Source: Tubulanus polymorphus (lineage: Eukaryota; Animalia; Nemertea). From it: a DNA stretch of 64,000 nucleotides. Of the stretch, positions 12,872 to 64,000 are shown one piece after another (the first letter of the stretch is position 1; every line of letters starts with the position of its first letter). Location: positions 11,331,263 to 11,395,262 of the forward strand of contig NC_134028.1 in assembly GCF_964204645.1 (NCBI RefSeq), in the 5' to 3' direction. The notes beneath the pieces were generated by a model that was not told the origin of the DNA, searched no databases, and worked only from the letters and a program-made list of their open reading frames with translations. The translations under genes were made by a program, and so were the position numbers.

Positions 12872-12874
12872 ATT

Positions 12875-37328: not shown

Positions 37329-38592
37329 TTTTTAGCCCACTTGGGACTTAAGTCCCAGCGGGCTATTGCGTTCACTTTTTTTATGCTGTTGTCCTTCGTC
37401 CGTAGACAGAATCAAGTTATTTTGGGAAGTTTTGAAAACGCTTCAATGTAATGTCTTGATATTTTGGTTACCCATGTATCTACCCTAGACACATCTTCAG
37501 CCCAAAAATTGGCCCTGTCAGTCAATATGGCCGACTGGCAGCCATCGTTGTTCGCCAAAATCATCACTCTTAATAGGTTTTTGAACCTTTTGAGGGAAAT
37601 TTTGAAAACGCTTTGATCAATTAACTTAATCTTTCGTATATATTTGAATCCCCCAGGGCCTATCAGCATAACAAAAATTGGGTGGATTGGACTCAAGATG
37701 GCCGTGTTATGACCTTTTAAGTGCCCAAAAATGTCAATTTTGGCCCGAATTCTTAGTCCTGTACCTTCCTACTGGTTTGCCATTTCTCATTGCAATTGCT
37801 GATGGGTATTCTTTGGAAAGGGATGTTTTATACCTGGGACAGGTATTGTTGATCAGCCATTTATGACGCAATTGGCGGCCATCTTGGTGTCATCAGCACT
37901 CATTCATAGGTGGGAATAAGTTTTTCGACATTATATTGATACCTAAGCATATTTTGTTACCACAATGAATTAGCAAGTTGTAGCTTATAACGTGTTCTAT
38001 GATTGTGGTGAGTTTCAAGGTCTTTGGTTTTGTATATGGCCACCAGGGGGCGTTGAATAATACAATATCTTAGTATTTCTATATCATATTTGTAACAATG
38101 CATATTTTGTTACCACAATCAATTGCAAAGTTGTTACGCATGACATCGTCTATGATTGTGGTGAGTTTTAAGGACATGAGTTATTCTATATGGTCACTAG
38201 GGGGCGTTGAATAGTTGAATAACTTAGTATTTCCCTATTATATTGGTACCAAGGCATATTTTTTTACCATGATCAATTGCAAAGTTCTAGCTCATGACAT
38301 TTTCTATGATTGTGGTGAGTTTCAAGGTCATTGGGTTTTGAATATGGTCACCAGGGGGCATTGAATAGTAGAATAACTTAGTATTTCCATATTAAATTGG
38401 TAACGAGGCTTATTTTGTTATCACAATCAATTACAAAATCGTAGCTGCTGACATGTTCTATGATCGTGGTTAGTTTCAAGGTGATTGGTTTTTGTATATG
38501 GTCACCAGGGGGCGTTGAATATTGAAATTGTTAGATTGTTGAGCATTTGAAACCACTTCCCAAGTGGGAATGGTGTCCCTGGACCCCTAGTT
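37329..38592 (+). mobile_element. Complete HINE/Helentron-like family A element
   Basis: ttttagcccacttggga start, subterminal inverted cccaagtggg, four units of about 154 bp, and ctagtt end. Shorter copies at about 31860-31960, 44440-44655 and 46350-46524. Confidence 0.75.
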
Positions 38593-42808: not shown

Positions 42809-45800
42809 GTATCCTTATTCAGCTCGAATCTAGCAAGTGTATGCCTTCACTCATGTATGCCTTCACTTGTAGCCATTATCAACGCTTAGCGCTATTTGTC
42901 AGACTTAACTTGTCTCCAGAAAGGAGTATTTTATTGAAAAAATTTACATCAAATCCAATTCGATTTTATTCTGCAATTAAATCAATAAAATAAAGGGTAA
43001 AGGTTGAAGAATGGTTTAAAAGAAAGATGTACAAAAATATGAGATTTAAGGTACCCCAGTGTCCATTGAGGTAGTCCAATCTATTACCTCACGTTTTTTC
43101 CAGAGGCATTGAATAGCGGAATAACTTAGAATTTCCATATTATATTGATACCTAGGCACATTTTGTAACTCCAAAAATTGCAAAATTATAGCTCGGCAAA
43201 TCCAAGATTGTGGTTTCAAGGTCATTGATTTTTGTGGTCGGCATTGAGCCGACCACAATGTTTTAGTGGTTCGACGTGCAAGCACTTCATTTTCCCACTT
43301 TTCTCTGTTATTTGACATAAGATAGCTTTGTAACTTTCTCGGTCAGTCTGAAATTTGTTGCGTTTTCCTGAGTTTGTTAAAAGAAAGAATGAATTTATTT
43401 CTGAAAGGAGAAATTGAAGGAATTCTGTAAAATCATAATTATCTTCCTGTCTGATGTCATATCGGGATATCCCTTGACTTTTGCGCATCGATATGGCTGT
43501 GGTGATCGGCCTTTCTAAAAAAAGAATTCTTACTCTTTGAGGTGTGCCGCTTCTGGTTGTATTGTATATCGAAGGCCTAAAAAAACATTTTGCGATGTAA
43601 TTTAAATTAACAACGTATATTTGGTTATGATATGAGCCCTGGGCAAGGACATCAAACCAGCACTTCTCATGCGCGTAATCAGCTAGATTTGTGTTCCAAA
43701 AACCAATTCATCATGTATCACATGACTAGTAAAGTTTTCTGATCCTCACTTCAAAAGTTAAGAACTAAATTAAATTAATTGTTGTCATCCGATCAACTCT
43801 TACTAAAATTCAGAGAAAGATGAGAAAGATTGATTAGCATCTTGTACTGTGGTACCGTAGTTTGCAATATTTACGCGGAGCTGTGATGATAGTGCCCTCG
43901 TTTTAGTAACAGGTGTAGCTCTTCAAAATCAACAAAGCTGTTAATATTTCGATAAAGGGTAATCTGTTGATAGAAAAAGATTTTTACGAAAATATTTGAA
44001 CTAAAATTAATGATGCATATGCCCAGGGTCATCTTGACGGAAAAACGTTTGTATATGCAGATTAATTTTAAAGAATAGTAATTTGCATTAAAAAGCATTG
44101 TGTAGTATATACTTGAAATCGAACCCGTGAATTGATGCGGCTCATTCACTACGATCCTGCCTCTCTGCGGGTATCATCTATTTGACCCTACTTCATAATT
44201 GCACTGGATATCGATGAGACGATTACCCAACAGAGTAGCTACGGATTGGCGCGGCAGCTTTGAGAGTATGCAGACTGTGACCTTCTTATCGGTGTATAAG
44301 TTGCGTTCCCACGTGGCAGTGGCCTGGTGTTCGTAACTGTCACTGAGCTTCTTCGATCAAAAATGTTTCTAACCCGACCACATAGAAAGATTGTTTCTAG
44401 TTTGTATGTGCTAACCAGGGGCATATATACAACGTGAGAAATGTATTGGTACCTAGGCATATTTTGTTACCTCTATCAATTGCAAAATTGTAGTTCATGA
44501 CATGATCTATGAATGTGGTGAGTTTTCAAGGTGTGGTGAGTCTCAATGAATGTGGTTTCATTTCTCAATATGTTTAGTGGTGTTTAATGTTAAGATTTTC
44601 TGATTGTTAAGGTAACCACTTCTCAAGCGGGCATGGTCTCCCTTGAACCCTAGTTCATGAGCAGGAGCCAGTGGATGGAATCTTTAGAAATTTTTGACAT
44701 GATGTTCGTGTGACGATTTCGATGCTAGTGACGAATTACGTAGCTTCCTTTTATATTAGACGCGTATATTTTTCACATCAAACACTAGAACTAAAATAAA
44801 TAACACGACATAGAATAATATATAAAAAAAATAAATCTAATAATAAATTAATCATATATACACTTGGCTCACAAGCCTCCTATCCAACACAGTATCTGCA
44901 CACAGCCTACTGCTTCACACAGAGATCCACCCCAAAGTTCTCCCATATCAGATCCAACCCAGTACTTAAAGAACCAAACCCGACCAAGCCTAATAAGTAC
45001 ATACTAAAAACTCGACAACCATGACACACAATATAAACCACAGACTATAGACCACAACACCATTTACTGAAGAATGCCTACAAAATAAAAGCATTACCGC
45101 TCATACATAAATAAGTCAATTAGTAAATAAGTAAATCAATAATGAAAACACTGAAACCGTCACAGTTGGATCATGAAAAGGAGAACCCTATTTTATTTTA
45201 GACTAGCTGTAGGCTGAGCGTATTACCATACAAATGGAGCAAATTCAAATGACATGGTTTCCAGATGAATGGCCTTTTGACTATGCAACTGAGTAAATAT
45301 TTATTCAAATCAATCATTAAAGCATTATTCATTTTCCAATTCCTAAGGAGCTAAATTTTGAAAAAAGGTCTCGTTAAAATTTACATGAGGTTATTATCTG
45401 AACGCAATAATATCAGTTTTAAAAAGCCAAACGGAAAGCAAGGTCTCCTCTATGATTGGCTTTGCCGCAGAATTCAGTTGTTTGTGTGAACCTGCGATAT
45501 TGTGTACTGTTTTACTTCCAGCTTTTATTCTAAGATTTATAATTGTATTTCAAGATTGAATGTCTATGAAATCTTAAGTTGATTTGGTTTTTTGGGGGGA
45601 ACATTGTTATTTACACTACAGAGAATATCATTGACTATTGCGCAAGGTTTAGGAAATATAGCGTTTTCTCAAATCGGATGCACGACCTTGATATGCTAAT
45701 TTGCCATCTGCTCAAATAGCATATACAATCAAACTTTTTTCTGCAAAAAGAAAATTCAAATCCAATTTAATTTTACTTTATTGAACAAATGAAAGATCAA

Positions 45801-46768
45801 ATCCAATTTGGCAAATATCCTTGTGAGCTGGTAACAGGCTTAACCAGAGCATAGCTTGTTCTGATTTTTCCGTAACCTTTCCAAAAAATCAAGTGATAAT
45901 ACAGCTTTCTGTTTCAAGAAAATAATCATGGATTTTTTTTCTCTCAGAAATTGATTTGTAATGGACATGCTAAATCAATTTTTATGGCTAATTACATTTT
46001 TATGCCCCCTGGCTCAACTTTGGTTGAGGGGGTACTTGGTACACAACAAAGGCATCACTTTGAGCAGTACCCTATTCAAAATTGAGTTGATTCGATTCAA
46101 ATTATGGCCACCATATGGTGACATGAAAAAATGACATAGAGGCCGGAATTTACCAATATTTTTCAAACTTAGTACACAACTAGGGCTACAGAGCTACAGA
46201 GGGGCCGATATGAAAAACGTTAATGGCCATTAGGCTGCAATGGTTGACTGGTTTTTCAAACTTAGTACGCAGAACCCTTTTCAAAATCAGGTTCCTTCAA
46301 TTCAAATTGTGGCCACCAGGGGGTCGGCATAAAAAACTAGAGGCAATTTTTTTTAGCCCACTTGGGACATTCGCTGACATGTTCTATGATTATGATTATG
46401 GTGAGTTTGAAGATTATTGGTTTTTGTATATGGTCACAAGGGGGAGTTGAATATTGAAATCGTTAGATTGTTGAGCATTTGAAACCACTTCCCATGTTGG
46501 CACGGTGTCCCTGGACCCCTAGTTTGACTTGGAACACGACTAAGGTATCGCTTTAGACAGAACCTTATGAAAATTGGGTTGATGCAGTTCACACTAGTAG
46601 GCCGACATGATAAACGATTTAACCACTCCTAAGGCTGCAATTGTCAACCAATTTTCTCAAAACTTAGGGCAGAACCCTTTTAAAGATTAAGTTGATGTGG
46701 TTCAAATTATGGCCACCATATCTGTTCAGATAATTGCTCGCAGATTTAAGTAAGTGGGAAAACCCGCT

Positions 46769-46920
46769 AGGGATCATTCATTTATTAGGTACGCATGAAA
46801 TTTAAATTTTTTTCCCCTCCCCCTCTGTACGCAAGATCGGCCATTTTTTCATTACAGTACGCTATTGCACTTACCCCTCCCCCTCCCCTAATGCGTTTGT
46901 AATAAATGAATGACCACCTA
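46769..46920. mobile_element. Short Harbinger-like MITE
   Basis: Imperfect TIR tcattcatttatta..acgca / tgcgt..taataaatgaatga. Confidence 0.5.
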
Positions 46921-47128
46921 CCATGTATATTCATGATGAATCGTCATGCAGTTGTGTGTTATGGAGATCGTATCAATAGACAAATTTTCATGAAAACTTC
47001 TGGATTCAATCAAGGGGAACATCTTAGGCCTTTTGATTACTCGGAGCACGGATTCTCTGAAATTCTGCCAAAAACTTCATGGCGAAGATAGGTATGCGTT
47101 TCCATTCATAATTTGAATAAAGACATTT

Positions 47129-47895
47129 CTTGGCCAGACATAGTCTGAGCCTATTACTATACAAATGGAGCGAATTTAAAAGACATGGTTTCCAGAGTAA
47201 AGGCTCTTTGACTGTGCAACTGAGCATATATTCATACAAATCATTCATTAGAGCATTATCCATTCTCCAACCCCTATGAAGCGGAATTTGAAAGAGGGCC
47301 TCGTTGAAATTTATATGAGCTTTTTCGCGAAAGATATCTTGTTTTAAAAAGCCAATCAGAATGCGAAGACTACTCTATGATTGGCTTAGCCGCAAAGATC
47401 AGCAGATGTTCGCGTGAACCCACGGTATCGTCTACCGTTTTACTTCGGGATTTCATTTTAAGATCTAAAATTGTATTTCAATATCGATTTTCTGTGAAAT
47501 CTTTAGTTAATTTGGTTTTTGGGAGGAATATTTGTATTTGCACTACAGATAATGTCATTAACATTTGTGCAGAAAGTCTGGGAAAAATGGCTTTTCTCAA
47601 ATCGGATGGATGACCTTGATATGCTAATTAGCCATGTGCTCAAACTGCAAATTCAATCAAATTTTATTCTGCAAAAAATATCAAATTCAATTCATTTTTA
47701 CTTTGTTGAACAAGGTAAAACAGCAAATCAAATTCAATTTTGTTTTATTGAGCAAATTTCAGAAAATTCAATTCTATTCTGCCTTCAAATCAATAAGACC
47801 AAGGGAAAAGATTTATCTGAAGTATTTGTTCCTGCCAGCTCCAGTCACTGTCCTGTGCTACTGGCTGGCCATAGAGCCCCTTGGGGCTCTAGTTT
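47129..47895 (+). mobile_element. HINE-like family C; other copies at about 45203-45810, 52200-53530 and 54465-55331
   Basis: Shared ctgagc.tattac.atacaaatggagc...aaatcggatggatgaccttgatatgctaattagcc; end ctggctggccatagagccccttggggctctagtt with a 3' hairpin. Confidence 0.75.
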
Positions 47896-48793
47896 TCATG
47901 ATATTTTCCGTCCTAATTTTCGATCTAATTGTCTGTAAAAGGTCAGTCTTCTCCCATCAAGTTTAAAAGTTAAGTTTAAAAGTTCAAGGTTGCCATGATG
48001 AAATGAAATAATAATTTATGTTAGGCTACACTTGTATACCAATTAGTATTTAGAATGTTGAAAAAATAGTTTCTTATAGTTTGGAAATGGTTCAAAATTA
48101 ACTTGATATTAAAAATGAAATGAGAAAGAAAAGCATGCGCGTTTATAATTGTACAGCATTTCATATAGCCGCGCTGCTGTGGCAGTGTGCCAATAATCAA
48201 TACGCAGCAGTCTAACACTAGACTACAGGCGCGCGGCATTCAATGTATACACAATACATTCAACATGTGGATTCAATCGATGAGCACTAATCTGGTGATT
48301 TACTATCAGAAACAACCGATCCCAATGATTAATTGCAAACAGTGGTAAAGACTCAACTACTATGAGAATGACCATAGCAATGTCTTCAAAGGTGACATCT
48401 GTAAACACATGAGGAAGTGACTCGACTTTTTGAAAATTTGACCTGGACTTATACACCGAGTCGACTTGTACACCGGAAAATACGGTTCTCATGTAAATTT
48501 AGGAAAGTCCATATTTAGAATTTCGTTTCTTGTTACACTTTGTACACGTTGTTTAATATCATTCTTATAGAAATAATTGTTGCCTCGATATTTCTGATGC
48601 ATTTACCATAAATTATGTGGCCGTGAATTTCCTGGCCGGGGTATTCCAGGCTTTGCCTCGTTCTAGTTGCCCGATTTTCTCCATCCTTGCTTCCCAGGTT
48701 TGATAGTGCCTCATGCCAACACAAACCCTGGCCGCAGACCCTTGGTCTATTTCACCCCCGATTTCTTGTGTAGACAGGTTGCCACTCAGCGGC

Positions 48794-48884
48794 CACCATT
48801 TTATATATCTAGTCAGTCAGATGTGTTAGAGCGAATCTGCCAGTGAAAACAACACATCTGATTGGCTAGATATATAGACTGGTG
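48794..48884. repeat. Isolated palindrome (about 34-bp arms), probably a tiny MITE
   Basis: caccattttatatatctagtcagtcagatgtgtt ... aacacatctgattggctagatatatagactggtg. Confidence 0.7.
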
Positions 48885-49129
48885 CAAAATTGTTGCTCTG
48901 ATCCTGACTTTCGTATGGCTCCAAGTGTTTTCAATAAGGACCTGCCTGTTTCCTTTCCAACCTGGGAATCGTTTCTAGGACCGTGTCGGTTATTGCATTT
49001 CTTGATGATTTGAACGGCAGTTGCAAGCACTTCATTGTTTATTTTCTTCTATTCTTCAACAAGAGGTTTTGCCCCAGTCTCCTCTGGACCTAAACTGTGA
49101 GTGCTACACCAACTTTGAAATACCCTTAA

Positions 49130-49471
49130 GGGACCGTTCATTAAGTATGTACGCAAGCCCTAGGTAGGACCTCAACGGCAAAAGCGTATGATCTGCGTAC
49201 AAAGCTAGGTAGCTTTTCACACAAAGCGTACGCAATTAAACAATCAAAGTGCTCTAATTTCTATTGTTTAATATTGTAGTAGCCTGGCTATTCATCTGTA
49301 GTTATTAGTTCAGCCATGGAATGAGTCTGGAACATTATAATGAATTCATTGCCCTTTTTAAAAGGCTGTATCCTAGTAAATCCCTTCAAGAGGCCCATAC
49401 GATGTGCGTACTCAAGGTAGGACCTTGAAATAAGGTCTTATTTTTTGCATATGTACTTAATGAACGGTCCC
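49130..49471. mobile_element. Harbinger-like MITE
   Basis: TIR gggaccgttcattaagta / tacttaatgaacggtccc; flanks taa / aaa. Confidence 0.75.
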
Positions 49472-50246
49472 AAATTGCGTTGCAGGATTCACAAAAAAGA
49501 CCCAAAAGCTTCAAGGAATGGGGGGGACACGAATTATGAGACCCTCCTTTTTTCAAAGGGACTTGACTTGTCACTTGTCAATTTCAGTCTGTGTATTAAA
49601 GGCAGGAGTATATACCCTATGACAATTATACAGTTTGTTTCCTCCACAATGGGAGTTATATATTTTCCGTTGATATGTATGATTTTTAACTACTATTTAT
49701 TGCAACTTGTTTTTTTGTTCTATGGACGTTGTGAGTTTCAAATTCAATGCTGGTTTTGTATATATTCACCAGGGGCATTGAATAATGTAAAAATATGGTA
49801 TTTCTGTATACATGTACATTGGTGCTAAGTCATATTTCATGAAGACAATTTTGATCAAAATAAGTTCAACTGTGTATGTTATCCCATAGCAAGATTTTGA
49901 ACGTACACATTTCACCAGAGATTTTAACCCAAATCCATGGATATTCATCATTGTACTAAGCATGTGCATCCATGTTTGGGATAACTTGGGTATGCATGGG
50001 CTTGCGTAGTAAAATTGATGAAAATCTATAGATTTGGGTCAAAAAGTTAAGGAGAGTTTTCTCTTAAATTGTGTGATTTTGGAACAAGGTTCCTGTTAGC
50101 CTGCAAGCCATTTCATCCATTGATGTACACAGAAACCGGGGAATCAGAAATTTTGAAAGTGTCTGATTGTCGAGCATTCCATACCACTTTCCTAGGGGGA
50201 TGATGTCCCTGGACTATAAGTTTGATTTCCTTCACATCATGGATAG

Positions 50247-50325
50247 AAATACCCTTTTGACGATGCCATTCAGTGATGTATTCCTTGTCGAATCACTTCG
50301 GAAAATGTCATTCACTGAGGTTTTG
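50247..50325 (+). CDS. NOL11: NOL11 exon 11
   Basis: U12-like branch TTCCTTCAC at 50227-50235, then atag acceptor; NTLLTMPFSDVFLVESLRKM; gtaagt donor. Confidence 0.88.
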
Positions 50326-50555
50326 GTAAGTTATGGTCGTTGCATTTTACCAATAGCTCTTTGTATCTTTATTTTGGCCATTTTAACGAGTATTAGCCCT
50401 TTAAGGGCTGTGTATGCCTTATTTTTTCTTCATGAACTTTATGCAATTCGATAAATATTAAAAAGGAGTTTCAATTGATTGCAATGAATCCAAAAGCTAT
50501 TGGTTTCAAGTTTGACCAGCCGTATATTATGTAGCTGTAAAATTTGATTTTCTAG

Positions 50556-50645
50556 TTGCTGCTTAGATATCTGCATCATCTGTTGAAATTCGGCGTCGAA
50601 TCGTACTTGGATTTTATTGAAACAAAGTCGCTTACTATTCTACAG
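50556..50645 (+). CDS. NOL11: NOL11 exon 12
   Basis: ttctag acceptor, gtatgg donor; LLLRYLHHLL...LTILQ; 90 nt. Confidence 0.85.
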
Positions 50646-51899
50646 GTATGGGAACTTGGTTGATAAGTAGAGAAAATTGTTTTCCAATAATGATCAAATT
50701 TCCAGCCTGCTTGATCAGTTTCATTAAAGGGCACATGCCCAATAAATTGTACTTTTCGTTATTAATGCCAAATGCTATTTTTCTTTATAAATAATCTGAT
50801 ATCTGACTGATGGAAAAAGGATACTATTTAGCCCTAAATTTGTAATTTATTTATTTTCTTTGTTTACAAAGTTCACCTACAGCCTGCAGTCTGTGCTATT
50901 CTTGGTATCTCTGTGATAAACACAAGCATGTGTGTGCTCTCAGTATGCAGTAGCCTATATGAAATTGATTAAATCAACATCATTTGTTCGCAGCTATATA
51001 GTATCTTTATAGTACACCCACTAATATATATAATATAATATAATATGTTCATATATATAATATAATAATATAATATGTTCATTACCGTATTTTCTGGCTA
51101 ATAAGCCGATTTTCTAGCCCCAGATTTTTACCCTAAAATATCATGATCGGCTTATTGGACGGATACGATCTGACCTAAATAATTTCTTCCCAAACTATGT
51201 CAATCTAATGCTCCTGAAGATCATAAATGGTATTGCTGGACCCTGGTCCATTGACCCATGATGTGAACAAAGAACGGGCAGCAGTCTATTTCGTCATTAG
51301 TCAAGGCTGGAAAATGGGGCTAACATGCTCCAAGAATCCATTGACATTTCAAAATTTGATGCATGAAAATCACCTCAAAATGAGCTATTTAGTATCATGA
51401 TAAATGTGGATTTTCGGCATAGTAGACATTCCATAGCAAAATCCCATTCGTACTTCCCATTTGAAAGACGTGAAATTGTTGTTTGAGTATGGAAAAAGCC
51501 AAATAAACTTATCCAGATTAACATGGTTAGTGTGTATGGTGTATTCGTAGTAGAGCCAGTTGACTTCAACCGCATAGCAAATAGTCAATGTGCATTCTGT
51601 AATTTGCACACCTGTTATTTAATTTTGAAACCCATATATATATATATATATATTCAAGTTCAGTGTGAAAGAATAACATTTTGTCATGGATTAGTTTACT
51701 TATTAATAAGATCGTAAAAAGCATTTTGATAGATTAAGTGCTACTTGATCTTTAATATCATATTATTTCTCTTAGGGTTTACAGGTATAGGTTAATCATG
51801 AATAATGTCCAGATCAGTATTAAGTAGGTTATGTAGGTATGACTAGTGCTAGATTTAAAGAATACTATTGAAATCATTTCTTTTCTCTTTCGATTATAG

Positions 51900-52007
51900 A
51901 TTGTTGATTGGTTGTGTTTATTACTGGATGCTCACTTTGCTCAGTTAATTCTTTCTACTGATGCGAGATCAATTTTGGTAGAACTTCATCAAATCACGGA
52001 GTCGCAG
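51900..52007 (+). CDS. NOL11: NOL11 exon 13
   Basis: IVDWLCLLLDAHFAQL (NOL11/Utp8-type C-terminal motif); donor GTATCCTTT. Confidence 0.92.
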
Positions 52008-52145
52008 GTATCCTTTCCAGCATTGTGTCCAACTCTTAAGCTAATTTACTCTTAAGCTAGTTTCCCCGGCTAGTTTAACCTTTACCTGGCCTGAATAAAC
52101 TAGTGTGACCCTGAACCCCTAGTTTACTCTTCTTCAGTACTATTA

Positions 52146-54136
52146 CAGTCTACCTCAGATGTAACATCATTGGATTTACCGTAGATTCACTCCCCTGTGA
52201 AGCCGAATTTTGAAAAAGGGCCTCGTTAACATTTACATGAGCTTTTTTGCGAAAATCTGAATGCAAAAATATCTGTTTTAAAAAGCCAATCAGAAAGCAA
52301 AGACTCCTCTGTGATTGGCTTAGCGGCAGAGATCAGCAGGTGTTCACATGAACCCACGGTATGTCTACCGTTTTACTTACAGGTTTTATTTTAACCCTTT
52401 AACTGGCAAGTATTTTTCGGCCTATGAGAGATTTTGGACCTTGCAAGGGGAAAATTTAATAACTCAGTAGATATGAGGGATAACCCCATACTGTATGTAT
52501 TTTATGAAAGCTCTTTTCACAAGCTTTCAAATGATACCATGTTTGCGAACTTTGGGTGTTACCTTCAGGGTCTGACTCCAAGGTCACAGATCCCAAGGTC
52601 ATCCAGATTTTTGGGCCACCCATAATAAAAAACTGTCATGAGATTCATCCTAATATGAATTATCATCAGAATCTTTCATTACTATGTCCAAAAGATCAGC
52701 CAAACTCACTAGAGAACGTCTTTCGTGCATTGGCCATTACTACTAACGATATTCTCAATTTTCGAAATCTGACCCACGTGACACGTGGTTTCCATACCCC
52801 CTTCTACATGCCAAATGTATGAAATATCACTTTCCTGCCTTGTTAGACATTGTAGGCCGTCTGGTGTCGCCATCTGCTGATAGGAAAATGAGTTAGAATG
52901 CTTCACTGAAATCAATACTTGACTATTCTATTCACTATAGCTGGTCTATTCAAATCGGTCGCTAGCGACCGATTGCCAGTTAAAGGGTTAAGATCTAAAA
53001 TTGTATTTCAAGATCGATTTCTGTGAAATCTTCAGACGATTTGGTTTTTGGGAGGAATATTTTTATTTGCACTACAGAAAATATCATTGACATTTATGTA
53101 ATGTTCGGGAAAATAGCTTATTCTAAAATCGGATGGATGACCTTGATATGCTAATTAGCCATGTGCTCAAACTGCTAATTCAATAAAATTTTATTCTGCA
53201 AAAAATATCAAATCCAATTCAATTTTATTTACTTGCACAAATTAAACATAAAATCCAATTCAATTTTGTTTTATCGAGCATATATCGGAAAATTCTATTC
53301 TATTCCGCATTCAAATCAATAAGACTGGGAAAAGATTTATCTGAGGTATTGGTTGCTGCCAGCTCCAGTCGTTGTCTGTGCTACTCATGAAAACACGATT
53401 GTATTGTGTAAATTATAGGTATTGTCTCTGAGCTGGGAGTGTATTTTGACAAATATACCCCACAGAATGCATCATTTGCCATTTTATGAACAGCTGACTG
53501 GCTGGCCATAGGGCCCCTTTGGACTTTGTTTCCTTCCATTAGGCCTTAAAAAAAACTCGAATGTACCGTATTTTTTATAACGTAGATCACTTATATCTCA
53601 TGGATTATTTGGTCCCAATTAGTCGAATCAATGTAATTATCCTCGGTGAGAAGAATTATCGATAGTTTCCATGACAACACTTACATAAAGGCATATCATA
53701 GCCCTACACAATATGCTAACAGTAGTCTGTAGTGCCTGTTTCAAAGTGGCACAAAAAACTTTTATCTAACTTCTATTTCTAGTTTACTTTAGTCTATTTT
53801 AGTGTTTTATTTCTTCATAAGATATTTACCCAAAACAGTCAACCAAAAAAGAAATTACGAGGGCGGAAAAAATTATTCATTAATATGAGATCCTTTAGAT
53901 ATAGCCATGGACTTTAGATCCATGATAAGCAGATCGCATTCGCAAACATCGACATGAAACTTGAATGGAATTTCAAGCCACTTAATTCTTCTCTGATTGT
54001 TCAACACATTGAAGTCTTTTTATGCACGCAGGCATGCATGGATATCCCTTGGTTTTAAATGACATTCGGATAAGTTTCTACGGTATATACGTATACCGTA
54101 TTTCGGTTATAAGGTATAAATTATAGAGGTAGACTG
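52146..54136. mobile_element. Tc1/pogo (Tigger-like) non-autonomous element with nested insertions
   Basis: ta-cagtctacctc ... gaggtagactg-ta (11-bp TIR, TA TSD). Confidence 0.6.
52395..52987. mobile_element. piggyBac-type MITE
   Basis: TTAA-ccctttaactggcaa ... ttgccagttaaaggg-TTAA; the empty site ttttaagatctaaaa is seen in the family C copy near 47457. Confidence 0.9.
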
Positions 54137-54175
54137 TAGTTGATATTGAACTAATCAATAATCATCTCATTTTAG

Positions 54176-54298
54176 GTTGTGTTCTACAGTGAGTTGGTTA
54201 CACTGGAAACATTACTTCAACAACTCAAGAAAAATTGTACGATACCAACGAAAAAGAATGCCGGTCTTTACAACATCCATATACTTCATATTCCTTGA
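54176..54298 (+). CDS. NOL11: NOL11 exon 14 (last coding exon)
   Basis: tttag acceptor; VVFYSELVTLETLL...GLYNIHILHIP*; resembles vertebrate YSEL...GLYSIEVL (recalled). Confidence 0.9.
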   Translation, partial: VVFYSELVTLETLLQQLKKNCTIPTKKNAGLYNIHILHIP

Positions 54299-56339
54299 TC
54301 TTTCTTTTAGCCAATAGATATCCATACATGATATTTCTTCGTTTTGTTGGTTTGGAAATTCAGGTTGAGGCTAACTAAAAAATCTGTTTGATGTACTTTC
54401 TTGAAATTCAGTGGGTCAATAGGTCAATATTTCTAGCCTATTTCAGTGGATAATTGCATTTATTTTAGGGCAGCCGTAGGCTGAGCTATTACTCTACAAA
54501 TTGAGCAAATTTAAATGACATTGTTTCCAGAGCAAAGGCCCTTTGACTATGCAACTGAGCATATATGCATACAAATCATTCATTAAAGCAATATCCATTC
54601 TCCAAATCCTAGCGAGCTGAATTTTGAATAAGGGTGGCGGGTCTCGTTAAAACTTTAATGACCTTTTTCGCGAAAATCTGAACGCAAAATTGTTGGTTTT
54701 AAAAAGTCAATCACAAGGCAAATTCCTCCATAATTGGTTTAGCCACAGAAATCAGCAGGTGTTCGTCTACTGTTTTACTTCCGGGTATTATTTTAAGATT
54801 AAAAATTTTATATCAAGATCGATTTCTGTGAAATTTTTAGTTGATTTGGTTTTTGGGAGGAATAATTTTATTTAGACTACAGAAAATATCATTGACAATT
54901 ATGCAGTCGTGGAAAATAGCTTTTTCTCAAATCGGATGAATGACCTGTATATACTAATTAGCCATGTGCTCAAACTGTAAATTCAATCAAATTTTATTCT
55001 GGAAATGTATAAAATCCAATTCAATTTAACTTTATTGAACTAATATAACATCCAATTCAATTTGGTTTTATTGAGCAAATTTTGGAAAAAACAATTCAAT
55101 TCTATTTCGCATTCAAATCAATAAGACCAATGGAAAGATTGATCTGATGTATTTGTTCCTGCCTGCTCCCTGTCTGTGCTACTTATGAAAAGATGATTGT
55201 AATGTGTAAATTATAGGCCGACTCAGTCGGAGCTGGGAGTGTATGTTGACAAATATAACCCACAGAATGCATCATTTGCCAGTTTATTTAAAGCTGACAG
55301 GGTGCCATAGTGCCCCTTGGGGCTCTTGTTTCTTACAAGTTTTCAATGCTTTTTCATATATTGTCTTGGCATTTGGTTTGTTCTTGTATCTACCCTGGTC
55401 AGATCTGTGGCCTAAAATTTAGCCTGATTAGAATCAAGGGAATTAGATCAGGACCTTCGTTTAGCCTAGGTGGAAAGCTTTCCAAGTTTGATTGTTTTTA
55501 GAAAAATTGCTATATAGAAATTCATATGGCCTGGGCAAGACGCTCTTAATGCTGGGAACCTGATGGTATCGTAGTCTCGACCACAACACGGAACCGGGTG
55601 CGCACGTTTAAGCCAGTTCCATGAGAACCGCTGCTATGTAGTGAAGAAAATGACAATTTTATCATTTTTCATTTCATACTTTAGCAGGACCCGCGAAAGA
55701 ATGGCCATTTCGTAATTTCTTACTTTAGAAGGGCCTGATGTTAGTAAAAGTCATTGATGTTGTCAATAAAGTTTATTAGGGTTCATACCTATGTTCTATA
55801 TTTCCCGGGTCCTTTATTCCCCCAAGGGAAATTATACAAAAAGGGGTTCTTTTTATTCCCCGAGTCCGATGTTTCCGGGTTCTATATTATTCCCCTGGTA
55901 ATATATATCCCCACGGCAGATTATGGAAAATGTACAAAAAGGTCCTTTGTTCTCATGACCACACACACTAAATTTTGGCGCTGGCTATTGAGAGCATGAT
56001 AGAGGGCCAGCAGGCTGCCGAACCTGAAATGCAACCAATGTTAGTCGATGATGTGGAAAATCGGCACTATCTTCATTTTTGTTTATTTCATTGAATGAAA
56101 CGACATGAATCACAATAAAAAATTGCCCGGGCAAGTCTAAAAGCATTTTTACAGTTTGACGTAACTACTGCATGAATTACCGTGATCGATCGATATCGTC
56201 ATCTCGAACTGATCTCGTTCAGTTCTCGCTGTAGCAAAAAATTAAAAGCAACCTTGTCTGTATCAAATTTATAGTATTTTAGCTAATAAATGTTACAATT
56301 GATGGAATATTATTAAAAGCATGGGTATGGACGCTCCGG

Positions 56340-59067
56340 TCAACCTTTTTATTATTTGGAAAATATTGTAGAGTTGAATTCCGTAGAAACGATGAAACGA
56401 ACGACACACAACACAACGATCTCTGACGATACATAAACGATAGGTCGATCGTTTAGACAAGATTCAATCTCTATTAATACCATATACAATTCTACAACAG
56501 AAACCGACGTTATACTAGTACTTTTTTCAGACACATTTTTTGTTAGACCGATCATGCGTTCCCAGAAGCCTCCGTGCCAAGGCACTCGCTTGGTTATGAA
56601 TTTCCAGTCCACTTGACTTGAAGTTAAATACTGGGGAACTTTTGAGTCTAAATCTGCTTTAATCCAGTATGGGCACCGACGAAGGTAGAGGCATCATCGG
56701 ACACGGGCATCCTTGGCGCCGAGCGTCTGGCAGCAAAATGTCTGAAAGCGAATGAAAATTCTTCGGCAGTAGCATTGTTAACTATTTCAATATGAATGGC
56801 TCGTGTCACAGCATAAGTAAATAAACAGATCGAACACTTTTTACCACTTTCACAGTAAGATGTCCGCAATAGTCCACGCCTGTATAAGTAAATACAAGCG
56901 AATCTGCAACTCTACACGACGGTAAAGGCGGTGGATCAGGCAAAATGTATGGTCGACCCTGTAATCAACGACAAGTGACACAACGACGCGTTTGATGTTT
57001 AATATACTGACATAATTGAGGTACCCAAAATTTCTCTCTTATTTTGGCAACAGTTGTCGCAATCCCGAAATGAAATACAGCTACATGGGCACTACGAGCA
57101 ATTAAGTCGGATAAAAGCGTGTTCTTTGTAATCAAAGCTGGGTGTTTAGTCTCAAACAGCAAATTCGTGCATCTTACGTTTTTCAAAAAGCGTAGAACTG
57201 AAGCAGTAATACGAAAGAGCTTGGTTATAGACGAATATTCGTGAATATCTATCACTTGATCGATATTCTAACTATATTCCGAATTCTTAACGTTTGTTAC
57301 ATAAGAATCGACAGAAGCACAAATTGATTCGCCATGCTGGTTAGCAAGGGGAAGTCTCGAAACATCATCAATGAGCCAAATAGGACCTTTATGCCACAAA
57401 TTGTTTTCTTTAAATTGGATAGCTGTACATCCCCGTGACACAACAGATCAGTTGGATTGGAACTGGAAGGCCAGTAATACCAAATATCGGCTGGTAAAAT
57501 TCCCTTTATTTCCTTTACTAGATTCGTCACAAAGACCGGTAACTTTTTATCAGAACGTAGCCAGCCTAACACAATCTGACTGTCGCTCCATGCAAAAACT
57601 GGAATTGGGCGAGTGACCGCGATAGCGAGAGACTTTCTAACGTTTTCGACTAATCGCGCTCATGACAGCACTCATTAATTCTAATTTAGGAACTGTCTAT
57701 TCCTTAACAGGGGCTACTCTAGATTTAGCCTGACAACAGAACAGTCAACAAAACATCGAACATAGGTGACTGCACCGTAATCTACTGTACTGCTATCACA
57801 AGACACGTGCAATTCAAGATGTGTTTCAAACGTGATGGATTTCAGAACAATACGTGGGAATTTCATACGCAGAATTTCATGGAAATCAGAAATAATATCT
57901 CGCCACAAGTCACGAATTTCAACAGGTAATGGTTCATCCCACCCGAATTCCTGTTTCCAAAGTTTCTGGAAAAGTAACTTAGCACGAACCGTAACAGGAA
58001 CTAACCAGCCTTAACGGATCATATAGAGGCCGTTTTGTGCATTATTATACGTTTGGTTAGTAAATTCTGATCAGTTGAAAGATTACGAAAGACGAACCCC
58101 AATTGGTCGTTCTCAATATTCCAATTGAAACCAAATATTGTGACCAGATTGGAACTTTCTGAAACGTTCTGTTCAGTAGCAACATCTTGTAATAATACTG
58201 AATTAGACGACCAGCATCTTAAGTTAAAATTCACCTCCGACAGACGCTGACGACAGGATTTGTGAAAGAAGTGCAGAGCTTCCTCATCGGAACAAACGCT
58301 GGACACGATATCGTCGACGTACGTATATCTCTCAACAATTGTTGAGATAGAATGCAATCGTTCATCTTCAAATGATATATAATCGCACTGTTTAACAGAA
58401 ATGGCGAGCAAGTCGCGCCGAATAGTACTCTTAAAAAAATCGGGTGGCGTCACGCTCAGAAGGATGTAATAATTTTCAATGTCAGCTGGCACAATACCGC
58501 ACTGAAAAAGCCTAAATCGCATAATTATAGAACTCTAGGCATTGATTAATGATAGTCCCGAATCCAAACAATCATTCAACGGAGGTGACGATTTTGACTG
58601 GTGACTACTGCAATCAAATACAATGCGCATCGGTGTAGTGGCTGATTCACGAAAAACGGGATGACGCGGAATATAGTGTTCAATATTACTAATTAATGAA
58701 GGATCTTCTACTAGCTCAATGAAACCTCTGTTCATCTGGTCATTTATATTGCCATTGTATTTTTCTAATAACCCAGGAGTCTTAGATATAATACGCAACA
58801 AACCGTAGAACGAGTTCTAGCTCTAGCTACAGCATAATTAGTGGGCAAATCGCAGTGATTATCTTTCCAAGGTAGTCTTACATAATAGATACCATCCTCA
58901 AACTCAATAGATGAACTTTAAAATTCATCTAAGAAACTGATTTCAGTGGAGGATGCACTCTCAATCCCTAGCGTCTCTAAGGACCAAAAATTTCGAAGAT
59001 CGGTTATATCTGGTTCAGCTAAAACGTGTAACGTCTGAACACATTCTTGCTTCTCGAGAGGACTGTT
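56340..59067 (-). mobile_element. Decayed BEL/Pao retrotransposon pol, truncated at the 59068 palindrome
   Basis: FWSLETLGI, YYVRLPWK, TTPMRIVFDCS, LNDCLDSG, YVDD, LHVSCDSS, TRAIHIE and PWHGGFWERMIG; many stops and frameshifts. Confidence 0.93.
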
Positions 59068-59157
59068 AGTAAGGGGGAAATAGTTGTTCTATACTAAAGG
59101 TCGGGTCGAGCAAGCTCAACTCAACCTTTGATATAAAACAACTATTTCCCCCTTACT
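59068..59157. repeat. Imperfect palindrome (44-bp arms, 2-nt loop) at the start of the AT-rich region
   Basis: agtaagggggaaatagttgttctatactaaaggtcgggtcgagc-aa-gctcaactcaacctttgatataaaacaactatttcccccttact; 38 of 44 positions pair. Confidence 0.95.
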
Positions 59158-59380
59158 TTCAGTACTATATGTGTTAAATCAGAGAATACATAAATCTAAA
59201 TGTGTTAAATTCTTGATTTTAACATAAAAAGTAACGAGTAATTAACAAGTGAAAACTTGCGTCGAGAAATCAGTGAATATATTAATATTTAAATGTGTTT
59301 AATTCTTGATTTTAACACATTTAACGAGTAATTAACGAGTTGAAAGAAATATCAATTTTAATAAAAAATTTGATATTAAA

Positions 59381-59674
59381 ATGGAAGCAAATAAGTACTA
59401 CTGTCCGACATGTAAAATCAATATAGATAAATCTAAAAAATCAAGACACAATAAAACTAAATCTCACTTAGAGAATAAATTAAAGTTAGAATATAAAGAT
59501 GAAATATTAGAAAATAAATTAGATGAATTAAAGAATGAAAAAGAAATATATAAATGTGATACATGTAATCAATCATTCAGTGAAAAAAGATGTCATAAAG
59601 AACATTTTAAGTCTAAAACTCATATTAGAAATATGAGTAATGAGTTAAATAATATAAAAGATGACGAGTACTGA
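59381..59674 (+). CDS. Small protein with two C2H2/matrin-like zinc fingers
   Basis: YYCPTCKINIDKSKKSRHNKTKSH and YKCDTCNQSFSEKRCHKEHFKSKTH. Confidence 0.8.
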   Translation: MEANKYYCPTCKINIDKSKKSRHNKTKSHLENKLKLEYKDEILENKLDELKNEKEIYKCDTCNQSFSEKRCHKEHFKSKTHIRNMSNELNNIKDDEY

Positions 59675-59710
59675 AGAAAATATCAGTTTTAATAAAAAAA
59701 TGACTTATAA

Positions 59711-60282
59711 ATGAATGAACAGATACTACAGTTCAAAGATATCGATCTAAATGAATTAGAAAAATATTTTACAATTAAAAATTTCATTCCTATTAAAGAT
59801 TTGATTAAAATTGCACGCTTCCGTTTTCAAGTGAAAAATATTACTGAATTAATGTTTAAAAATTATTATCTAATGATAGAGTTATCGAATGATAAAGATA
59901 AAATCTTATTCAATACAATAATTCCAAAATTCACAACATAGAAGAAATAGATAAATATTTAATAATTACAGATGAAATACAATCACTTTTTAATAATGAA
60001 AATTCAGATAAATCATTATTTCTACACTTACGTTTTTGTCCTTTCAGAGAATGCTATGTAATGTTTTTCAGAGTAGAAGAGAAAAGATTCATCCCCGACT
60101 TTCCAAATGAAAAATCATTCAAAGATGTTGCAGTTCAATGTAACTTAGAGAATAAAATCGAAACACCTAAATATGAACCTAATGAAGTGTTATGTAATTG
60201 TGGAAAATATTATACTCGAAGCAATAAATCACACCATCTTAAATCAAAATATCATAACTCAAAAATAATAATTCAACTCTAA
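59711..60282 (+). pseudogene. Probable single ORF frameshifted near 59935, with a C-terminal CxCG..H..H zinc finger
   Basis: The frame of 60061-60282 is open upstream (IEEIDKYLIITDEIQSLF...). It ends VLCNCGKYYTRSNKSHHLKSKYH, a finger style I associate with virophage, Polinton and giant-virus small proteins. Confidence 0.65.
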
Positions 60283-60325
60283 TTATTTGATATTTTATAA
60301 ACTGTTTAATTTTTTTCTTAAATAA

Positions 60326-60490
60326 ATGGAAGATTTCAGCATTCCAATTGGGAAAAGTGATTTGAAGCATTATCTTTTAGCAGGAGGGTTAATATTGGCT
60401 GCATTATATTTCTATAATGAAATTATCAGTAAAGATTTGATGAATGAAAATATAAAATTGAGTAAGAAATTAAAAATTAAATGGAAATAA
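60326..60490 (+). CDS. 54-aa putative single-pass membrane protein
   Basis: ATAAATG start; MEDFSIPIGKSDLKHYLLAGGLILAALYFYNEIISK...; below the ORF-track size cutoff. Confidence 0.45.
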   Translation: MEDFSIPIGKSDLKHYLLAGGLILAALYFYNEIISKDLMNENIKLSKKLKIKWK

Positions 60491-61129
60491 AAATAACAAA
60501 AAAGTTATTGAATCAGATTAGTGAATTAATCGAATAATTAATTAAATGAGTGAAAATATATTAGATTTATTACACCTTATTTAAAGAAATCAACAGAATA
60601 TTAAATCTTAAATTTTACAGGTTTATTTTCATTCTCAGTTTACTCATTGAAACAGATGTTAGAATTCTATGATAATTGCAAGATTAGATATACAGAATTA
60701 AAAGATAACGTAAATTATATTTCAGATCGAATAAATAATATTAAGTGTTGTGAAATATGCAATAAAGATATAAAAATAAAAAGAGTTTAAGGAATCATAA
60801 ATATATTCATGAACTTGATGAAAAATTACATAATTCAAATTAAGTTTGATGATGAAAAAGATTAATTTCTATTTACATATTGATGGATGAGTGGATGAAT
60901 TGGAAGAATTGGATGAAAGGATGAGTGTGGATGAGTGTAATAATATATAATTTACATATGTTTTTTTATTTTTAAAACAGTAAGAGTTTGATTTTAAGTT
61001 ATTTTATCAATTTTATACTATATTTAAATATTATTTTAATAAAATATATATATATATTGTTAAATTTAATATAGAATACAAATATTATATTTATACTCAT
61101 ACTATTCTTCCAATTCATGTGTTAAAAAG

Positions 61130-61131
<2 letters not shown>

Positions 61132-61210
<79 letters not shown>
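61132..61210. repeat. (TA)n microsatellite
   Basis: About 40 TA units. Confidence 0.98.
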
Positions 61211-61214
<4 letters not shown>

Positions 61215-61228
61215 ATTTTATAAATTTA

Positions 61229-62473
61229 CTAGCTGAATACCCGTCCAATGGACGGCTTTGTCGTTGCGCATGGTTGTATTGGTCGTGAGCACACCACCTC
61301 GGCACATAAATCCTGCATCCTGCATTTTGCTTATGAAATACATTCATTTTAATTGGAAATGAATCTAAATGCTTCAAATGTTCAGAGTTCTTTCAACCGC
61401 CCCCACACCTGCGCTCCCCTACCCCGTCTGACCTGTCTGTGGTACAAAACCATTTGTTCAAATAACTAACCGTAGATAACCGGCCCCAGCGGTTTTTAGG
61501 CCCCCTCTTTCTTGTGTGAGCACTTACTATATTGACCACACCACCCGTACGTTCATTTAAAAGCCCCTCCATTCAACCAACGAATTGCATGATATCATGC
61601 TTAACTTGTGGGACTGCCATTAATTGAAAAAATACCAAGGTACGGTAATCGCTCGACGATGATATTAGGATTCGGTATTTTGTATCACTGTTTGACATTT
61701 TTTTTTTATATCGTATATTCATACATTTTGCAAGAGAGCGTTAGAAAATACGTACCTTTTTCTTTGACCCCCTCCCCGTACGAAGTTACTACCGGTACAT
61801 TATTTGTTACCCCTCCCCAAAAAACCGTATGTACTATTTGAACGCTCTTTTATAAAATCTACCACCAACGCACGCATCCGCAGCCCCCAGAGCCATTCCG
61901 AGAGGCTGCGTTTGGGCCTCCCTATTTGCCGGTAACCTGTATGTGGTATGGAACCATTCTGAAAAACTACGCAATGGGCCTGTCCCCCTCTAAGAACCAT
62001 TCTGAGACGCTGCATATGGGTGGGCAACACGGTCAGAACATCGCTAAAAATTCCAATCATATTAATTTTGATCCAAAGATTGTGTGAATGAATGTTTTAA
62101 CCAATGGTTTAAACACCCGAAATTCATAACTGAGGCACAAATCACAGTGTTGAGAGAACTGTACTGTCGTACTGTTCTGATGCTGCGTTGTGTATCCTAA
62201 GTCGGTCAGGTCAGTAAATTACTATAGTACTACTACAGAAGCATAGTACGGTACTTTACTGTTAGATGGCGAACACATCTTTTTTAACCAAATTTCAGCC
62301 CGGGCCTAAAATGAATATTGTGACTCCCTCGGACAACCAATCTGTTTAAAACATGTAACTTGACGACGGGAAAAACTGGTATTAAGCATCAGTAAAAGGA
62401 CGTTTCAATACATGCATTAATTTCCCTACAATGTGTCGCGGTAAATACCGTCCGTTCTGCTTTATAGTATAGA
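61229..62473 (-). mobile_element. Non-autonomous canonical Helitron
   Basis: Minus strand starts TC and ends with hairpin CCGTCC-ATT-GGACGG followed by CTAG; inserted at A|T; higher GC than its flanks. Confidence 0.88.
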
Positions 62474-62564
62474 TATTCATAAGGAATAAATAATATGTTT
62501 TCACTTAGTAAAAATAAAAAATAGATTCTATTATAACTATTTATATAAATAGTTTTATCATATA

Positions 62565-62920
62565 TATTTCTGTTTCAATATTTATTTATCTCACAGATTT
62601 ATTATATATATTTGGAAAAGTATAAATATTATTATTGAAACAGTAATATATAATAAATCTGTGTGATAAATAAATATTATTATTGAAACAGTAATATATA
62701 ATAAATCTGTGTGATAAATGAATATTATTATTGAAACTGTAATATATAATAAATCTATCAGATGAATGAATATTACTATTGAAACTGTAATATATAAAAT
62801 ATATTAGTTGAAATGTATGAAAATGAGTAAATTATATTTATGTTAAACAGGGGTTGAGATATCAATGTATTAAATACGTAGTTAAACAGGGGTTGAGATA
62901 TCAATGTATTAAATACGTAT
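62565..62920. repeat. About 48-bp tandem array (4 units) with one inverted unit, then a 39-bp duplication
   Basis: tattattattgaaac(a/t)gtaatatataataaatct repeated 62626-62797; inverted copy near 62565-62610; gttaaacaggggttgagatatcaatgtattaaatacgta x2. Confidence 0.9.
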
Positions 62921-63534
62921 TAAAGGTATTAAAATACATATTATGCTTTAAGTGAAAACATATAATTTATTCATTTTTATATTCTATTTATAAAATAAAA
63001 TTCTAATTTGAAATATTATAGAATTTTGAATGTGTATGAGTGGATGAGTTGGATGAATTGGATGAATGGATGAATATGGATGAGTGTAATAATATATGAT
63101 TTACACATGTTTTCATTTTAAAAAACAGTAAGAGTTTGATTTTAAGTTATTTATGCTATATTTAAATATTATTTTAATAAAATATATATATATATATATT
63201 TTGTTAAATTTAATATAGAATATAAATATTATAATTATACTCATAATATTCTTCCAATTCATGTGTTAAAAAGTAAAATATATATATTATTACACTCATC
63301 CATCCTCATCCACTCATCCATTCATCCAACTCATCCACTCATCCATCAATGTGTAAATTGAAATTGATCTTTTTCATTGTCAAACTTAATTTGAATTATG
63401 TAATTTATCATCTAATTCATGAAGATTCAATGTATTGTTCATTATTTGGGTCATTGTTCCATGATTCAATGAATTTCTTTGCTTTATCTAATTGCTCCAA
63501 ATATAACTGTAAATCTAGTTTGTTAGGTTTTTTT

Positions 63535-63999
63535 TTAATTTTCTTTCTTTTCGAGGGGCCTTAGATTCTTCCGATTCCATATCAATTTCTGGTTGTATTC
63601 ATCATTCATGTTAAATTTAGATACCGGTAACACATGATCTATTTGAAAATAATTTCCATAATTAATTATATTCATTTCATCATTGAACTGAAATATGATC
63701 CATAAAAATTTATCTGAACAATCCAATAAATTTGTTAGTTTTTCTGAGTGTGTATCTTTACTGAATAAATTTGATAATCTAATTCTCAAACATTGTTTCA
63801 ATTTAAAATTAAAATCTGTTCGACGCCTTTCTTTTTGATAATTATTATAATATTCATTAAAATGTTCTCTATTATTAGCTATACATTGTTTTTTCAGTGC
63901 TTTATATTTTTCTGAATTATTTGCTTGATATTGCTTAATCTTATCTTTGCGTGTTTCAATATTATTTCTATAATATTGTTTAACATATAGTTTACTACA
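63535..63999 (-). CDS. Giant-virus-type HNH / endonuclease VII-like protein, 5' end beyond the window, probably frameshifted at its 3' end
   Basis: Frame open from the window edge: Y..NN.E repeats, RRRTDFNFKL..LRIRL, NYGNYFQIDHVLPVSKF and NLRPLEKKEN. Confidence 0.75.
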   Translation of the reverse strand, partial: CSKLYVKQYYRNNIETRKDKIKQYQANNSEKYKALKKQCIANNREHFNEYYNNYQKERRRTDFNFKLKQCLRIRLSNLFSKDTHSEKLTNLLDCSDKFLWIIFQFNDEMNIINYGNYFQIDHVLPVSKFNMNDEYNQKLIWNRKNLRPLEKKEN

Positions 64000-64000
64000 A

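What the first reader, a model, noticed from the sequence alone, without database searches (positions are those of the whole stretch)
59062..64000. Hairpin-ended, AT-rich element with virus-like genes inserted into a BEL retrotransposon
Seen: the BEL pol frame stops at a 90-bp imperfect palindrome. Beyond it the DNA becomes extremely AT-rich and encodes small intronless proteins: a double zinc finger, a CxCG..H..H finger, a tiny membrane peptide and an IDH..P..NL.PL..EN nuclease. Known: such fingers and nucleases occur in giant viruses, virophages and Polinton-like viruses, while classical Polintons end in long TIRs with 6-bp TSDs rather than a self-contained palindrome. Inference: this is one end of a virus-like integrative DNA element using a palindromic recombination or replication site, resembling palindromic ends of some animal Crypton-type (tyrosine recombinase) repeats. 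It may be an undescribed class.
Basis: partly seen in the sequence, partly recalled or inferred. Interest (0 to 1): 0.85.

Follow-up and report, generated by a model that had tools for sequence, protein, structure and literature searches.

The report
Hairpin-tipped Polinton relic in a retrotransposon
This is the decayed end of a repeated, virus-like element, most likely a Polinton/Maverick transposon, that sits against an old BEL retrotransposon and begins with a 90-base palindrome likely used as a replication or integration signal, so it is a variant of a known element and not a new class.

Summary
A decayed BEL/Pao pol abuts a 90-bp palindrome (59068-59157; z -10), then 21-22% GC DNA. The junction is in short-read contigs of two samples, and other copies start at the same base with other flanks. 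The double zinc finger is 62% identical to the first 94 residues of a 1365-aa protein-primed-type DNA polymerase (L007). The nuclease is 59% identical to the HNH gene directly behind that polymerase, and an rve integrase follows (L006). So this is a Polinton/Maverick derivative with a truncated polymerase gene. No tyrosine recombinase was seen. The palindromic tip recurs in other genomic copies and in 1 of 78 polymerase loci (L045: 129 bp, AGTAGT...ACTACT, 150 bp before the polymerase). Terminal palindromes are already described for virophages and Polinton-like viruses of a protist (2026 preprint), mostly with other replicases. Earlier scan notes report Polinton end hairpins and palindromic satellites in other genomes. 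The far end, target duplication and core genes lie outside the window and are untested.

The parts
56300..59067 (-). Decayed BEL/Pao pol (RT, RNase H/Peptidase_A17, integrase), many stops and frameshifts; its 5' part is not in the window
59068..59157 (.). Element tip: 90-bp imperfect palindrome beginning AGT and ending ACT; arms match at 38 of 44, all 6 mismatches are transitions; no 3-10 bp duplication around it
   Evidence: boundary shared by other copies
59176..59345 (.). Two subterminal direct repeats of about 80 bp (82% alike), 91 bp apart; reads show other copy numbers
   Evidence: 'goes back 81' joints
59381..59674 (+). ORF A, 97 aa: N-terminal double zinc finger of a Polinton-type polymerase gene, without the rest of the gene; between two 28-bp direct repeats (59341, 59672)
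   Evidence: 62% identity to L007 residues 1-94, E 2e-34; also hits P0005, P0006
59711..59941 (+). ORF B, 76 aa, no homologue found
59902..60282 (+). ORF C, CxCG-type zinc finger protein; the finger type occurs in 5 of 78 polymerase loci and in 0 frames of window 1-59000
60326..60490 (+). ORF D, 54 aa with a hydrophobic stretch, no homologue found
60547..60845 (+). Broken ORF E fragments ending in the same 107-bp sequence (90%) as ORF F on the other strand
   Evidence: (I1)
60884..61211 (.). Truncated copy (87%) of the fold-back unit, ending in (AT)40
61225..62473 (.). Probable nested non-autonomous element (GC 0.42), Helentron/HINE-like ends; approximate limits
   Evidence: feature list from PMC4067079 passages; weakly tested
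62622..62924 (.). AT-rich tandem repeats (48-bp x3.7; 39-bp x2.2)
63039..63339 (.). Internal 301-bp fold-back unit with TGGATGAG-type repeats, between convergent genes
63410..63999 (-). ORF F, HNH nuclease, 59% identical to the gene directly behind the polymerase in L006/L007; open at 64000 and broken by a frameshift near 63535

Best explanation
The region is most likely the left end of a decayed Polinton/Maverick derivative that an rve integrase likely inserted into a BEL/Pao retrotransposon; its tip is a 90-bp palindrome that other copies share and that is predicted to fold into a hairpin during replication or integration. Shown: the boundary at 59068 is shared by other copies with other flanks; the block is multicopy and about 10% diverged; ORF A and ORF F are homologues of a polymerase N-terminus and its neighbouring HNH gene in a locus that also carries an rve integrase. 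Inferred: the visible part cannot replicate alone (polymerase stub, broken HNH) and depended on enzymes from fuller copies. The inner inverted arm would let a displaced single strand fold back at its own tip, giving a duplex end or a 3' primer without pairing with the far TIR (about 0.4 that the hairpin is functional in this way).
For: ORF A matches L007 residues 1-94 at 62%. ORF F matches P0001 at 59%, which starts 16 bp after that polymerase; an rve integrase (PF00665, E 6.5e-9) follows in L006. The L007 protein has 3667 relatives among 7984 candidates scored. Of 20 aligned relatives, 20 hit Endonuclease_7 and 4 hit DNA_pol_B_2 (best E 2.5e-20). Patterns that I recalled for OTU, exonuclease and polymerase motifs are all present. 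Related loci carry A32-type ATPases and rve integrases. Reads: X5 depth is about 1 in the flank (58577-59020), 62-166 over most of 59132-60907 and 545-1648 over ORF A; 4968 of 5637 laid reads are under 95% alike. Depth steps from 1 to 26-39 at 59064-59070, and contigs from X1 and X2 start matching at 59068 after unrelated flanks. 46 X5 reads join the inner arm (59141-59157) to the ORF A leader. 519 X5 reads leave the window together at 59643 (agreement 0.95), near where likeness to L007 ends (59647), as expected if most copies continue differently from this stub. L045 has the same layout with the published (AGT)2 end motif.
Against: No catalytic polymerase, integrase, ATPase, protease or capsid sequence was found in the visible 4.9 kb. 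The far end and a target duplication are unseen. The tip AGTAAG matches the published (AGT)2 motif at only 4 of 6 positions. L007's own polymerase did not hit PF03175 or any solved polymerase; its identity rests on relatives and motifs. The fold-back tip was found in only 1 of 78 loci, many of which hold no element end. A relaxed fold-back scan was at chance level (4 of 78 loci against 4 and 7 in two shuffles). The strict scan gave 3 hits in 20 shuffle rounds. 30 X5 reads carry only the inner arm behind other AT-rich sequence, so not all copies have the compact palindrome. Reads are unphased and one arm can be laid on the other, so the mirrored substitutions do not prove compensatory change.
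Confidence: 0.85

Rival explanations
1. It is a Polinton derivative, but the palindrome is a non-functional accident (a fold-back duplication of the tip, or collapse of a spacer) that spread with one subfamily.
For: Only part of the family has the compact form: about 19-25 reads cross the centre, against about 70 on the inner arm. The window's arms have decayed at 6 positions. The preprint names accidental annealing as an alternative.
Against: The same layout occurs in a different polymerase locus, L045. An inner-arm-like stretch lies upstream of the first ORF in L007 (7 of 2000 shuffles within its 5' 337 nt, chosen after the fact; 47 of 300 over the whole contig). At 2 of the 6 mismatched pairs many reads show the pairing base (unphased).
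Confidence: 0.35
2. The 90 bp is a free MITE, or a minimal two-tip satellite, that landed next to an ordinary Polinton fragment.
For: It is a self-contained inverted repeat with GC 0.40 against 0.22 beside it; depth dips to 18 at 59158-59168.
Against: There is no 3-10 bp duplication around it, only TT. 46 reads join its inner arm to the ORF A leader. Other copies share the outer boundary.
Confidence: 0.07
3. A new class of tyrosine-recombinase (Crypton-like) element that captured Polinton genes and uses the palindrome as a recombination site.
For: Only the palindrome itself; the rest of the element is unseen.
Against: No Pfam hit in six frames of 59068-61131. The identified genes and their neighbours are Polinton-type with rve integrase. 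Both arms sit on one end, unlike a split attachment site (established knowledge of tyrosine recombinases).
Confidence: 0.04
4. Assembly chimera at 59068.
For: One X4 contig of depth 3.6 skips 59046-59151.
Against: X1 and X2 records cross the junction with 5 and 1 differences.
Confidence: 0.02

Closest known systems
Polintons/Mavericks with Alpha-type (OTU-pfam03175) polymerase, 'adintoviruses' (PMC8502044, PMC8097293, 10.1101/2023.08.22.554363; passages read)
   Same: Polymerase N-terminus and HNH homologues, rve integrase in the closest locus, low-GC intronless ORFs, AGT-starting end; degraded copies are the norm (PMC8097293).
   Different: A compact palindrome at the very tip. 'palindrom' occurs 0 times in the main text of PMC8097293, PMC8502044 and 10.1101/2022.07.12.499685. 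Only a polymerase stub is visible; TIR and target duplication are untested.
Palindrome-tipped endogenous virophages and PLV subtype 4 of Halocafeteria seosinensis (10.64898/2026.07.28.741278; passages and section 7 read; supplements not seen)
   Same: Palindrome at the element tip, rve integration, hairpin-priming model proposed.
   Different: There 52 nt in subtype 5, in a protist, and preferentially with replicases other than the protein-primed polymerase; here 90 bp (129 bp in L045), directly ahead of a protein-primed-type polymerase gene, in what is probably an invertebrate genome (inferred).
Locus L045 (12,920-bp contig in a MAG bin, probably stray eukaryotic DNA)
   Same: 129-bp fold-back AGTAGT...ACTACT at the non-coding/coding boundary, no duplication around it, polymerase start 150 bp later.
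   Different: Longer loop; full-length 1248-aa polymerase ORF; little sequence likeness beyond the outer arm.
Crypton tyrosine-recombinase transposons (recalled)
   Same: Nothing tested beyond a palindromic end.
   Different: No tyrosine recombinase seen; relatives use rve integrase.

Membership tests
Polinton/Maverick | [quoted passage not shown] | tested here: inconclusive
   Window holds only the 97-aa N-terminal stub (62% to L007); L007 has the full 1365-aa gene of that family.
Polinton/Maverick | rve integrase | tested here: inconclusive
   Not found in the scanned window parts (six frames of 59068-61131; two ORFs of 63349-63999; tblastx of 59000-64000 against L006, top 30 rows); present in L006 behind the HNH homologue.
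Polinton/Maverick | Packaging ATPase, protease, capsid genes | not testable with these tools
   Element runs off the window and no genome is held; A32 ATPases occur in related loci L012, L026, L039.
Polinton/Maverick | End motif (AGT)2 or (AG)3 | tested here: inconclusive
   Tip reads AGTAAG, 4 of 6 with (AGT)2; L045 has the exact motif.
Polinton/Maverick | TIRs of 100-1500 bp and 5-8 bp target duplication | not testable with these tools
   Far end outside the window; sizes.
Polinton/Maverick | Interspersed multicopy insertion with a fixed terminus | tested here: met
   Depth step and other flanks at 59068; depth 62-166 against about 1.
Crypton / tyrosine-recombinase elements | Tyrosine recombinase gene | tested here: inconclusive
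   None in the scanned parts and closest loci carry rve; the unseen part cannot be excluded.
MITE | Own target duplication around the inverted repeat | tested here: not met
   No 3-10 bp duplication; only TT.
MITE | Free-standing, unlinked to coding blocks | tested here: not met
   46 X5 reads join the inner arm to the ORF A leader.
Palindrome-tipped virophages/PLVs (Halocafeteria type) | Palindrome at the tip, at both ends, next to the target duplication | tested here: inconclusive
   One tip shown; second end unseen.
Palindrome-tipped virophages/PLVs (Halocafeteria type) | Virophage or PLV capsid; mostly non-pPolB replicase | tested here: not met
   Replicase fragment is of the protein-primed type; capsid unseen.
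Giant palindromic Polinton satellites (earlier scan notes) | Two halves of the element are one long inverted repeat | tested here: inconclusive
   Beyond the shared 107 bp, the E side and F side align at chance level (50 of 200 shuffles); a centre outside the window cannot be excluded.
BEL/Pao retrotransposon (host of the insertion) | Pao peptidase/RNase H region and integrase zinc finger in pol | tested here: met
   PF05380 E 5e-19, PF17921 E 9e-10.

The most novel reading that the evidence does not exclude
A lineage of animal Polintons with protein-primed-type polymerase carries a conserved hairpin at the very tip and can restart replication by fold-back priming, which would let stripped, modular satellites like this copy be amplified by helper elements and would join protein-primed and hairpin-primed replication in one element.
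Probability: 0.25. Interest if true: 0.6.

Novelty: new variant of a known kind. Interest (0 to 1): 0.3.

Why it matters
How Polintons excise, replicate and re-integrate has not been shown experimentally in the papers read. A hairpin tip directly ahead of a protein-primed-type polymerase, in a genome with many diverged copies, would let conservation of pairing be tested and would extend terminal palindromes beyond the protist elements in which they were reported. If the hairpin is incidental, this is an ordinary Polinton fossil.

Tried and rejected
No genome is held, so the contig could not be extended. The tip pattern had 0 matches in viral contigs. ORF A alone gave no homologue within 53-170 aa; it was placed through loci fetched with ORF F relatives. 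ORF C gave 11 generic zinc-finger hits. ORFs B, D and E had no hits in Pfam, in the 83 loci or (B, D, E) in PHROGs at useful E-values. The AlphaFold model of P0001 was unusable (pLDDT 38), so no fold search was run. PDB sequence searches with the polymerase found only zinc fingers. The single-sequence polymerase scan of viral contigs found no relative; the alignment scans found 31 and 45 loci. The relaxed fold-back scan was at chance level. The L007 inner-arm likeness is not significant over the whole contig. A giant-palindrome architecture was not seen within the window. No RNA holder listed. Summed contig depths were not used as copy numbers. Kapitonov and Jurka 2006 was not held, so what it says about ends is known here only second hand. 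Paper searches listed no paper whose title or abstract start describes a palindrome at the tip of animal Polintons; only 7 papers were opened, and Repbase reports were not searchable.
Full report
Observation. The palindrome is at 59068-59157: two 44-bp arms, a 2-nt spacer, 38 of 44 matched, outer 21 perfect, all six mismatches transitions. It folds at -25.6 kcal/mol with z -10.1 and 0 of 200 shuffles as stable. To its left the minus strand carries a decayed BEL/Pao pol up to 59067 (PF05380 E 5e-19, PF17921 E 9e-10). To its right GC drops from 0.40 to 0.216; a 1.25-kb stretch at 0.42 interrupts the block, and the last 1.5 kb is 0.21. No whole genome is held, so only 4.9 kb of the element can be seen.

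The junction is real and is an element boundary. An X1 contig covers 57800-59220 with 5 differences and an X2 record crosses the junction with 1. These are two samples of one study, and X1 may be the source of the window. In raw reads of another study (X5, about 12% of the run read), depth is about 1 in the flank, 62-166 over most of 59132-60907 and 545-1648 over ORF A; 4968 of 5637 laid reads are under 95% alike. At finer scale depth steps from 1 to 26-39 at 59064-59070, about 19-25 reads cross the centre, and the inner arm has about 70. A 1580-bp X1 contig and a 245-bp X2 contig match from 59068 after unrelated sequence. So other insertions share this first base. 46 X5 reads join the inner arm to the leader of ORF A, and there is no 3-10 bp duplication around the 90 bp, which argues against a free MITE. 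30 X5 reads hold only the inner arm behind other AT-rich sequence, so the compact form is not universal. Mirrored substitutions appear in the two arms, but the reads are unphased and one arm can be laid on the other, so I do not count them as compensatory.

Identity of the genes. ORF F found one close relative, P0001 (59%), an HNH/endonuclease VII-like protein. Its loci L006 and L007 (GC 22%) encode a 1365-aa protein, then P0001 16 bp later, then two small ORFs and an rve integrase. The first 94 residues of the 1365-aa protein are 62% identical to ORF A (E 2e-34). That protein has 3667 relatives among 7984 candidates scored. Of 20 aligned, 20 hit Endonuclease_7 and 4 hit DNA_pol_B_2, and motif patterns I recalled for OTU, exonuclease and polymerase are present. 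It did not itself hit PF03175 or a solved polymerase. This fits the Alpha, OTU-pfam03175 polymerase class (PMC8502044 passages; PMC11161782 passages). Related loci carry A32 ATPases and rve integrases. 519 X5 reads leave the window together at 59643, close to where likeness to L007 ends (59647), which suggests that the window copy is a stub of a longer gene common in the genome (inference from position only). The ORF C finger type occurs in 5 of 78 polymerase loci and not in window 1-59000. ORFs B, D and E remain unplaced. ORF F is broken near 63535.

The tip in relatives. In 78 polymerase loci (L006-L083, 795 kb; many hold no element end), a strict scan for end-motif fold-backs found 1, L045 5614-5742; 20 shuffle rounds gave 3 hits in all. 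It starts AGTAGT, the (AGT)2 end motif of Mavericks (PMC8097293 passage), ends ACTACT, folds with z -10.3, has 0% coding to the left and 85% to the right, and lies 150 bp before a 1248-aa polymerase ORF. A relaxed scan was at chance level (4 of 78 against 4 and 7). A stretch like the inner arm lies near the start of L007, significant only in a window chosen after the fact (7 of 2000; whole contig 47 of 300).

Mechanism. Shown: a fixed terminus, multicopy dispersal, Polinton-type genes. From established knowledge and the papers read: such elements integrate by rve integrase with 5-8 bp duplications and are thought to replicate through annealed TIRs and a protein-primed polymerase. Inferred: this copy was inserted into the BEL element and then decayed, or was already a stripped derivative helped by fuller copies. 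The palindromic tip would let a single strand fold at its own end and provide a duplex end or a primer. I put about 0.85 on the Polinton origin and about 0.4 on a working hairpin.

Comparison and novelty. The element works like, and most likely derives from, a Polinton/Maverick. Strict membership (TIR, duplication, core genes) cannot be tested in this window. Terminal palindromes beside the target duplication, with a hairpin-priming model, are described for virophages and one PLV subtype of Halocafeteria, mostly with other replicases (10.64898/2026.07.28.741278, section 7 read; supplements not seen). Searches and the passages read showed no such tip for animal Polintons, but the founding paper was not held and Repbase was not searchable. 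Earlier scan notes describe a subterminal hairpin in Giardia Polintons and giant palindromic satellites in other animal genomes. They are leads only; the giant-palindrome layout was not seen here. Verdict: a real element end, a new variant of a known kind, interest 0.3.

Noticed in passing
window 61225-62473: GC 0.42 insert next to (AT)40, with a short 5' inverted repeat, a 9-bp subterminal inverted match and a small 3' stem; resembles a non-autonomous Helentron/HINE (features from PMC4067079 passages).
   Followed up: partly
window 60803-61143 and 63033-63426: Convergent ORFs E and F end in the same 107 bp and meet copies of a 301-bp fold-back unit that also starts AGT and ends ACT; possibly a bidirectional 3'-end signal or a small MITE.
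   Followed up: partly
window 59341-59368 and 59672-59699: A 28-bp direct repeat precedes ORF A and ORF B; reads from other copies skip ORF A between these repeats, which suggests cassette gain and loss.
   Followed up: partly
window 59354-59686: ORF A has about ten times the read depth of the rest of the block, pointing to a much larger family of polymerase-bearing copies in this genome.
   Followed up: partly
window 4941-14337: Gypsy-type LTR retrotransposon with 1466-bp LTRs 98% identical and a long pol ORF (7786-10626, minus); read from ORFs and self-BLAST only.
   Followed up: no
window 231-2255: DIRS/Ngaro-like RT and gag-like ORFs on the minus strand by eye, with a self-inverted repeat at 231-425.
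   Followed up: no
window 25233-25833, 37919-38521, 33046-33403, 45192-55332: 154-bp and 146-bp tandem arrays and a dispersed repeat family of several hundred bp, typical of invertebrate repeat landscapes.
   Followed up: no
L026 4657-4840: 184-bp palindrome between divergent genes upstream of the polymerase, with the end motif in the opposite orientation.
   Followed up: no
L039-L083: 45 loci in prokaryote MAG assemblies encode this polymerase type; probably eukaryotic DNA binned by mistake.
   Followed up: no
window 59046-59151: One low-depth X4 contig skips almost the whole palindrome; a hairpin artefact or a rare deletion.
   Followed up: no
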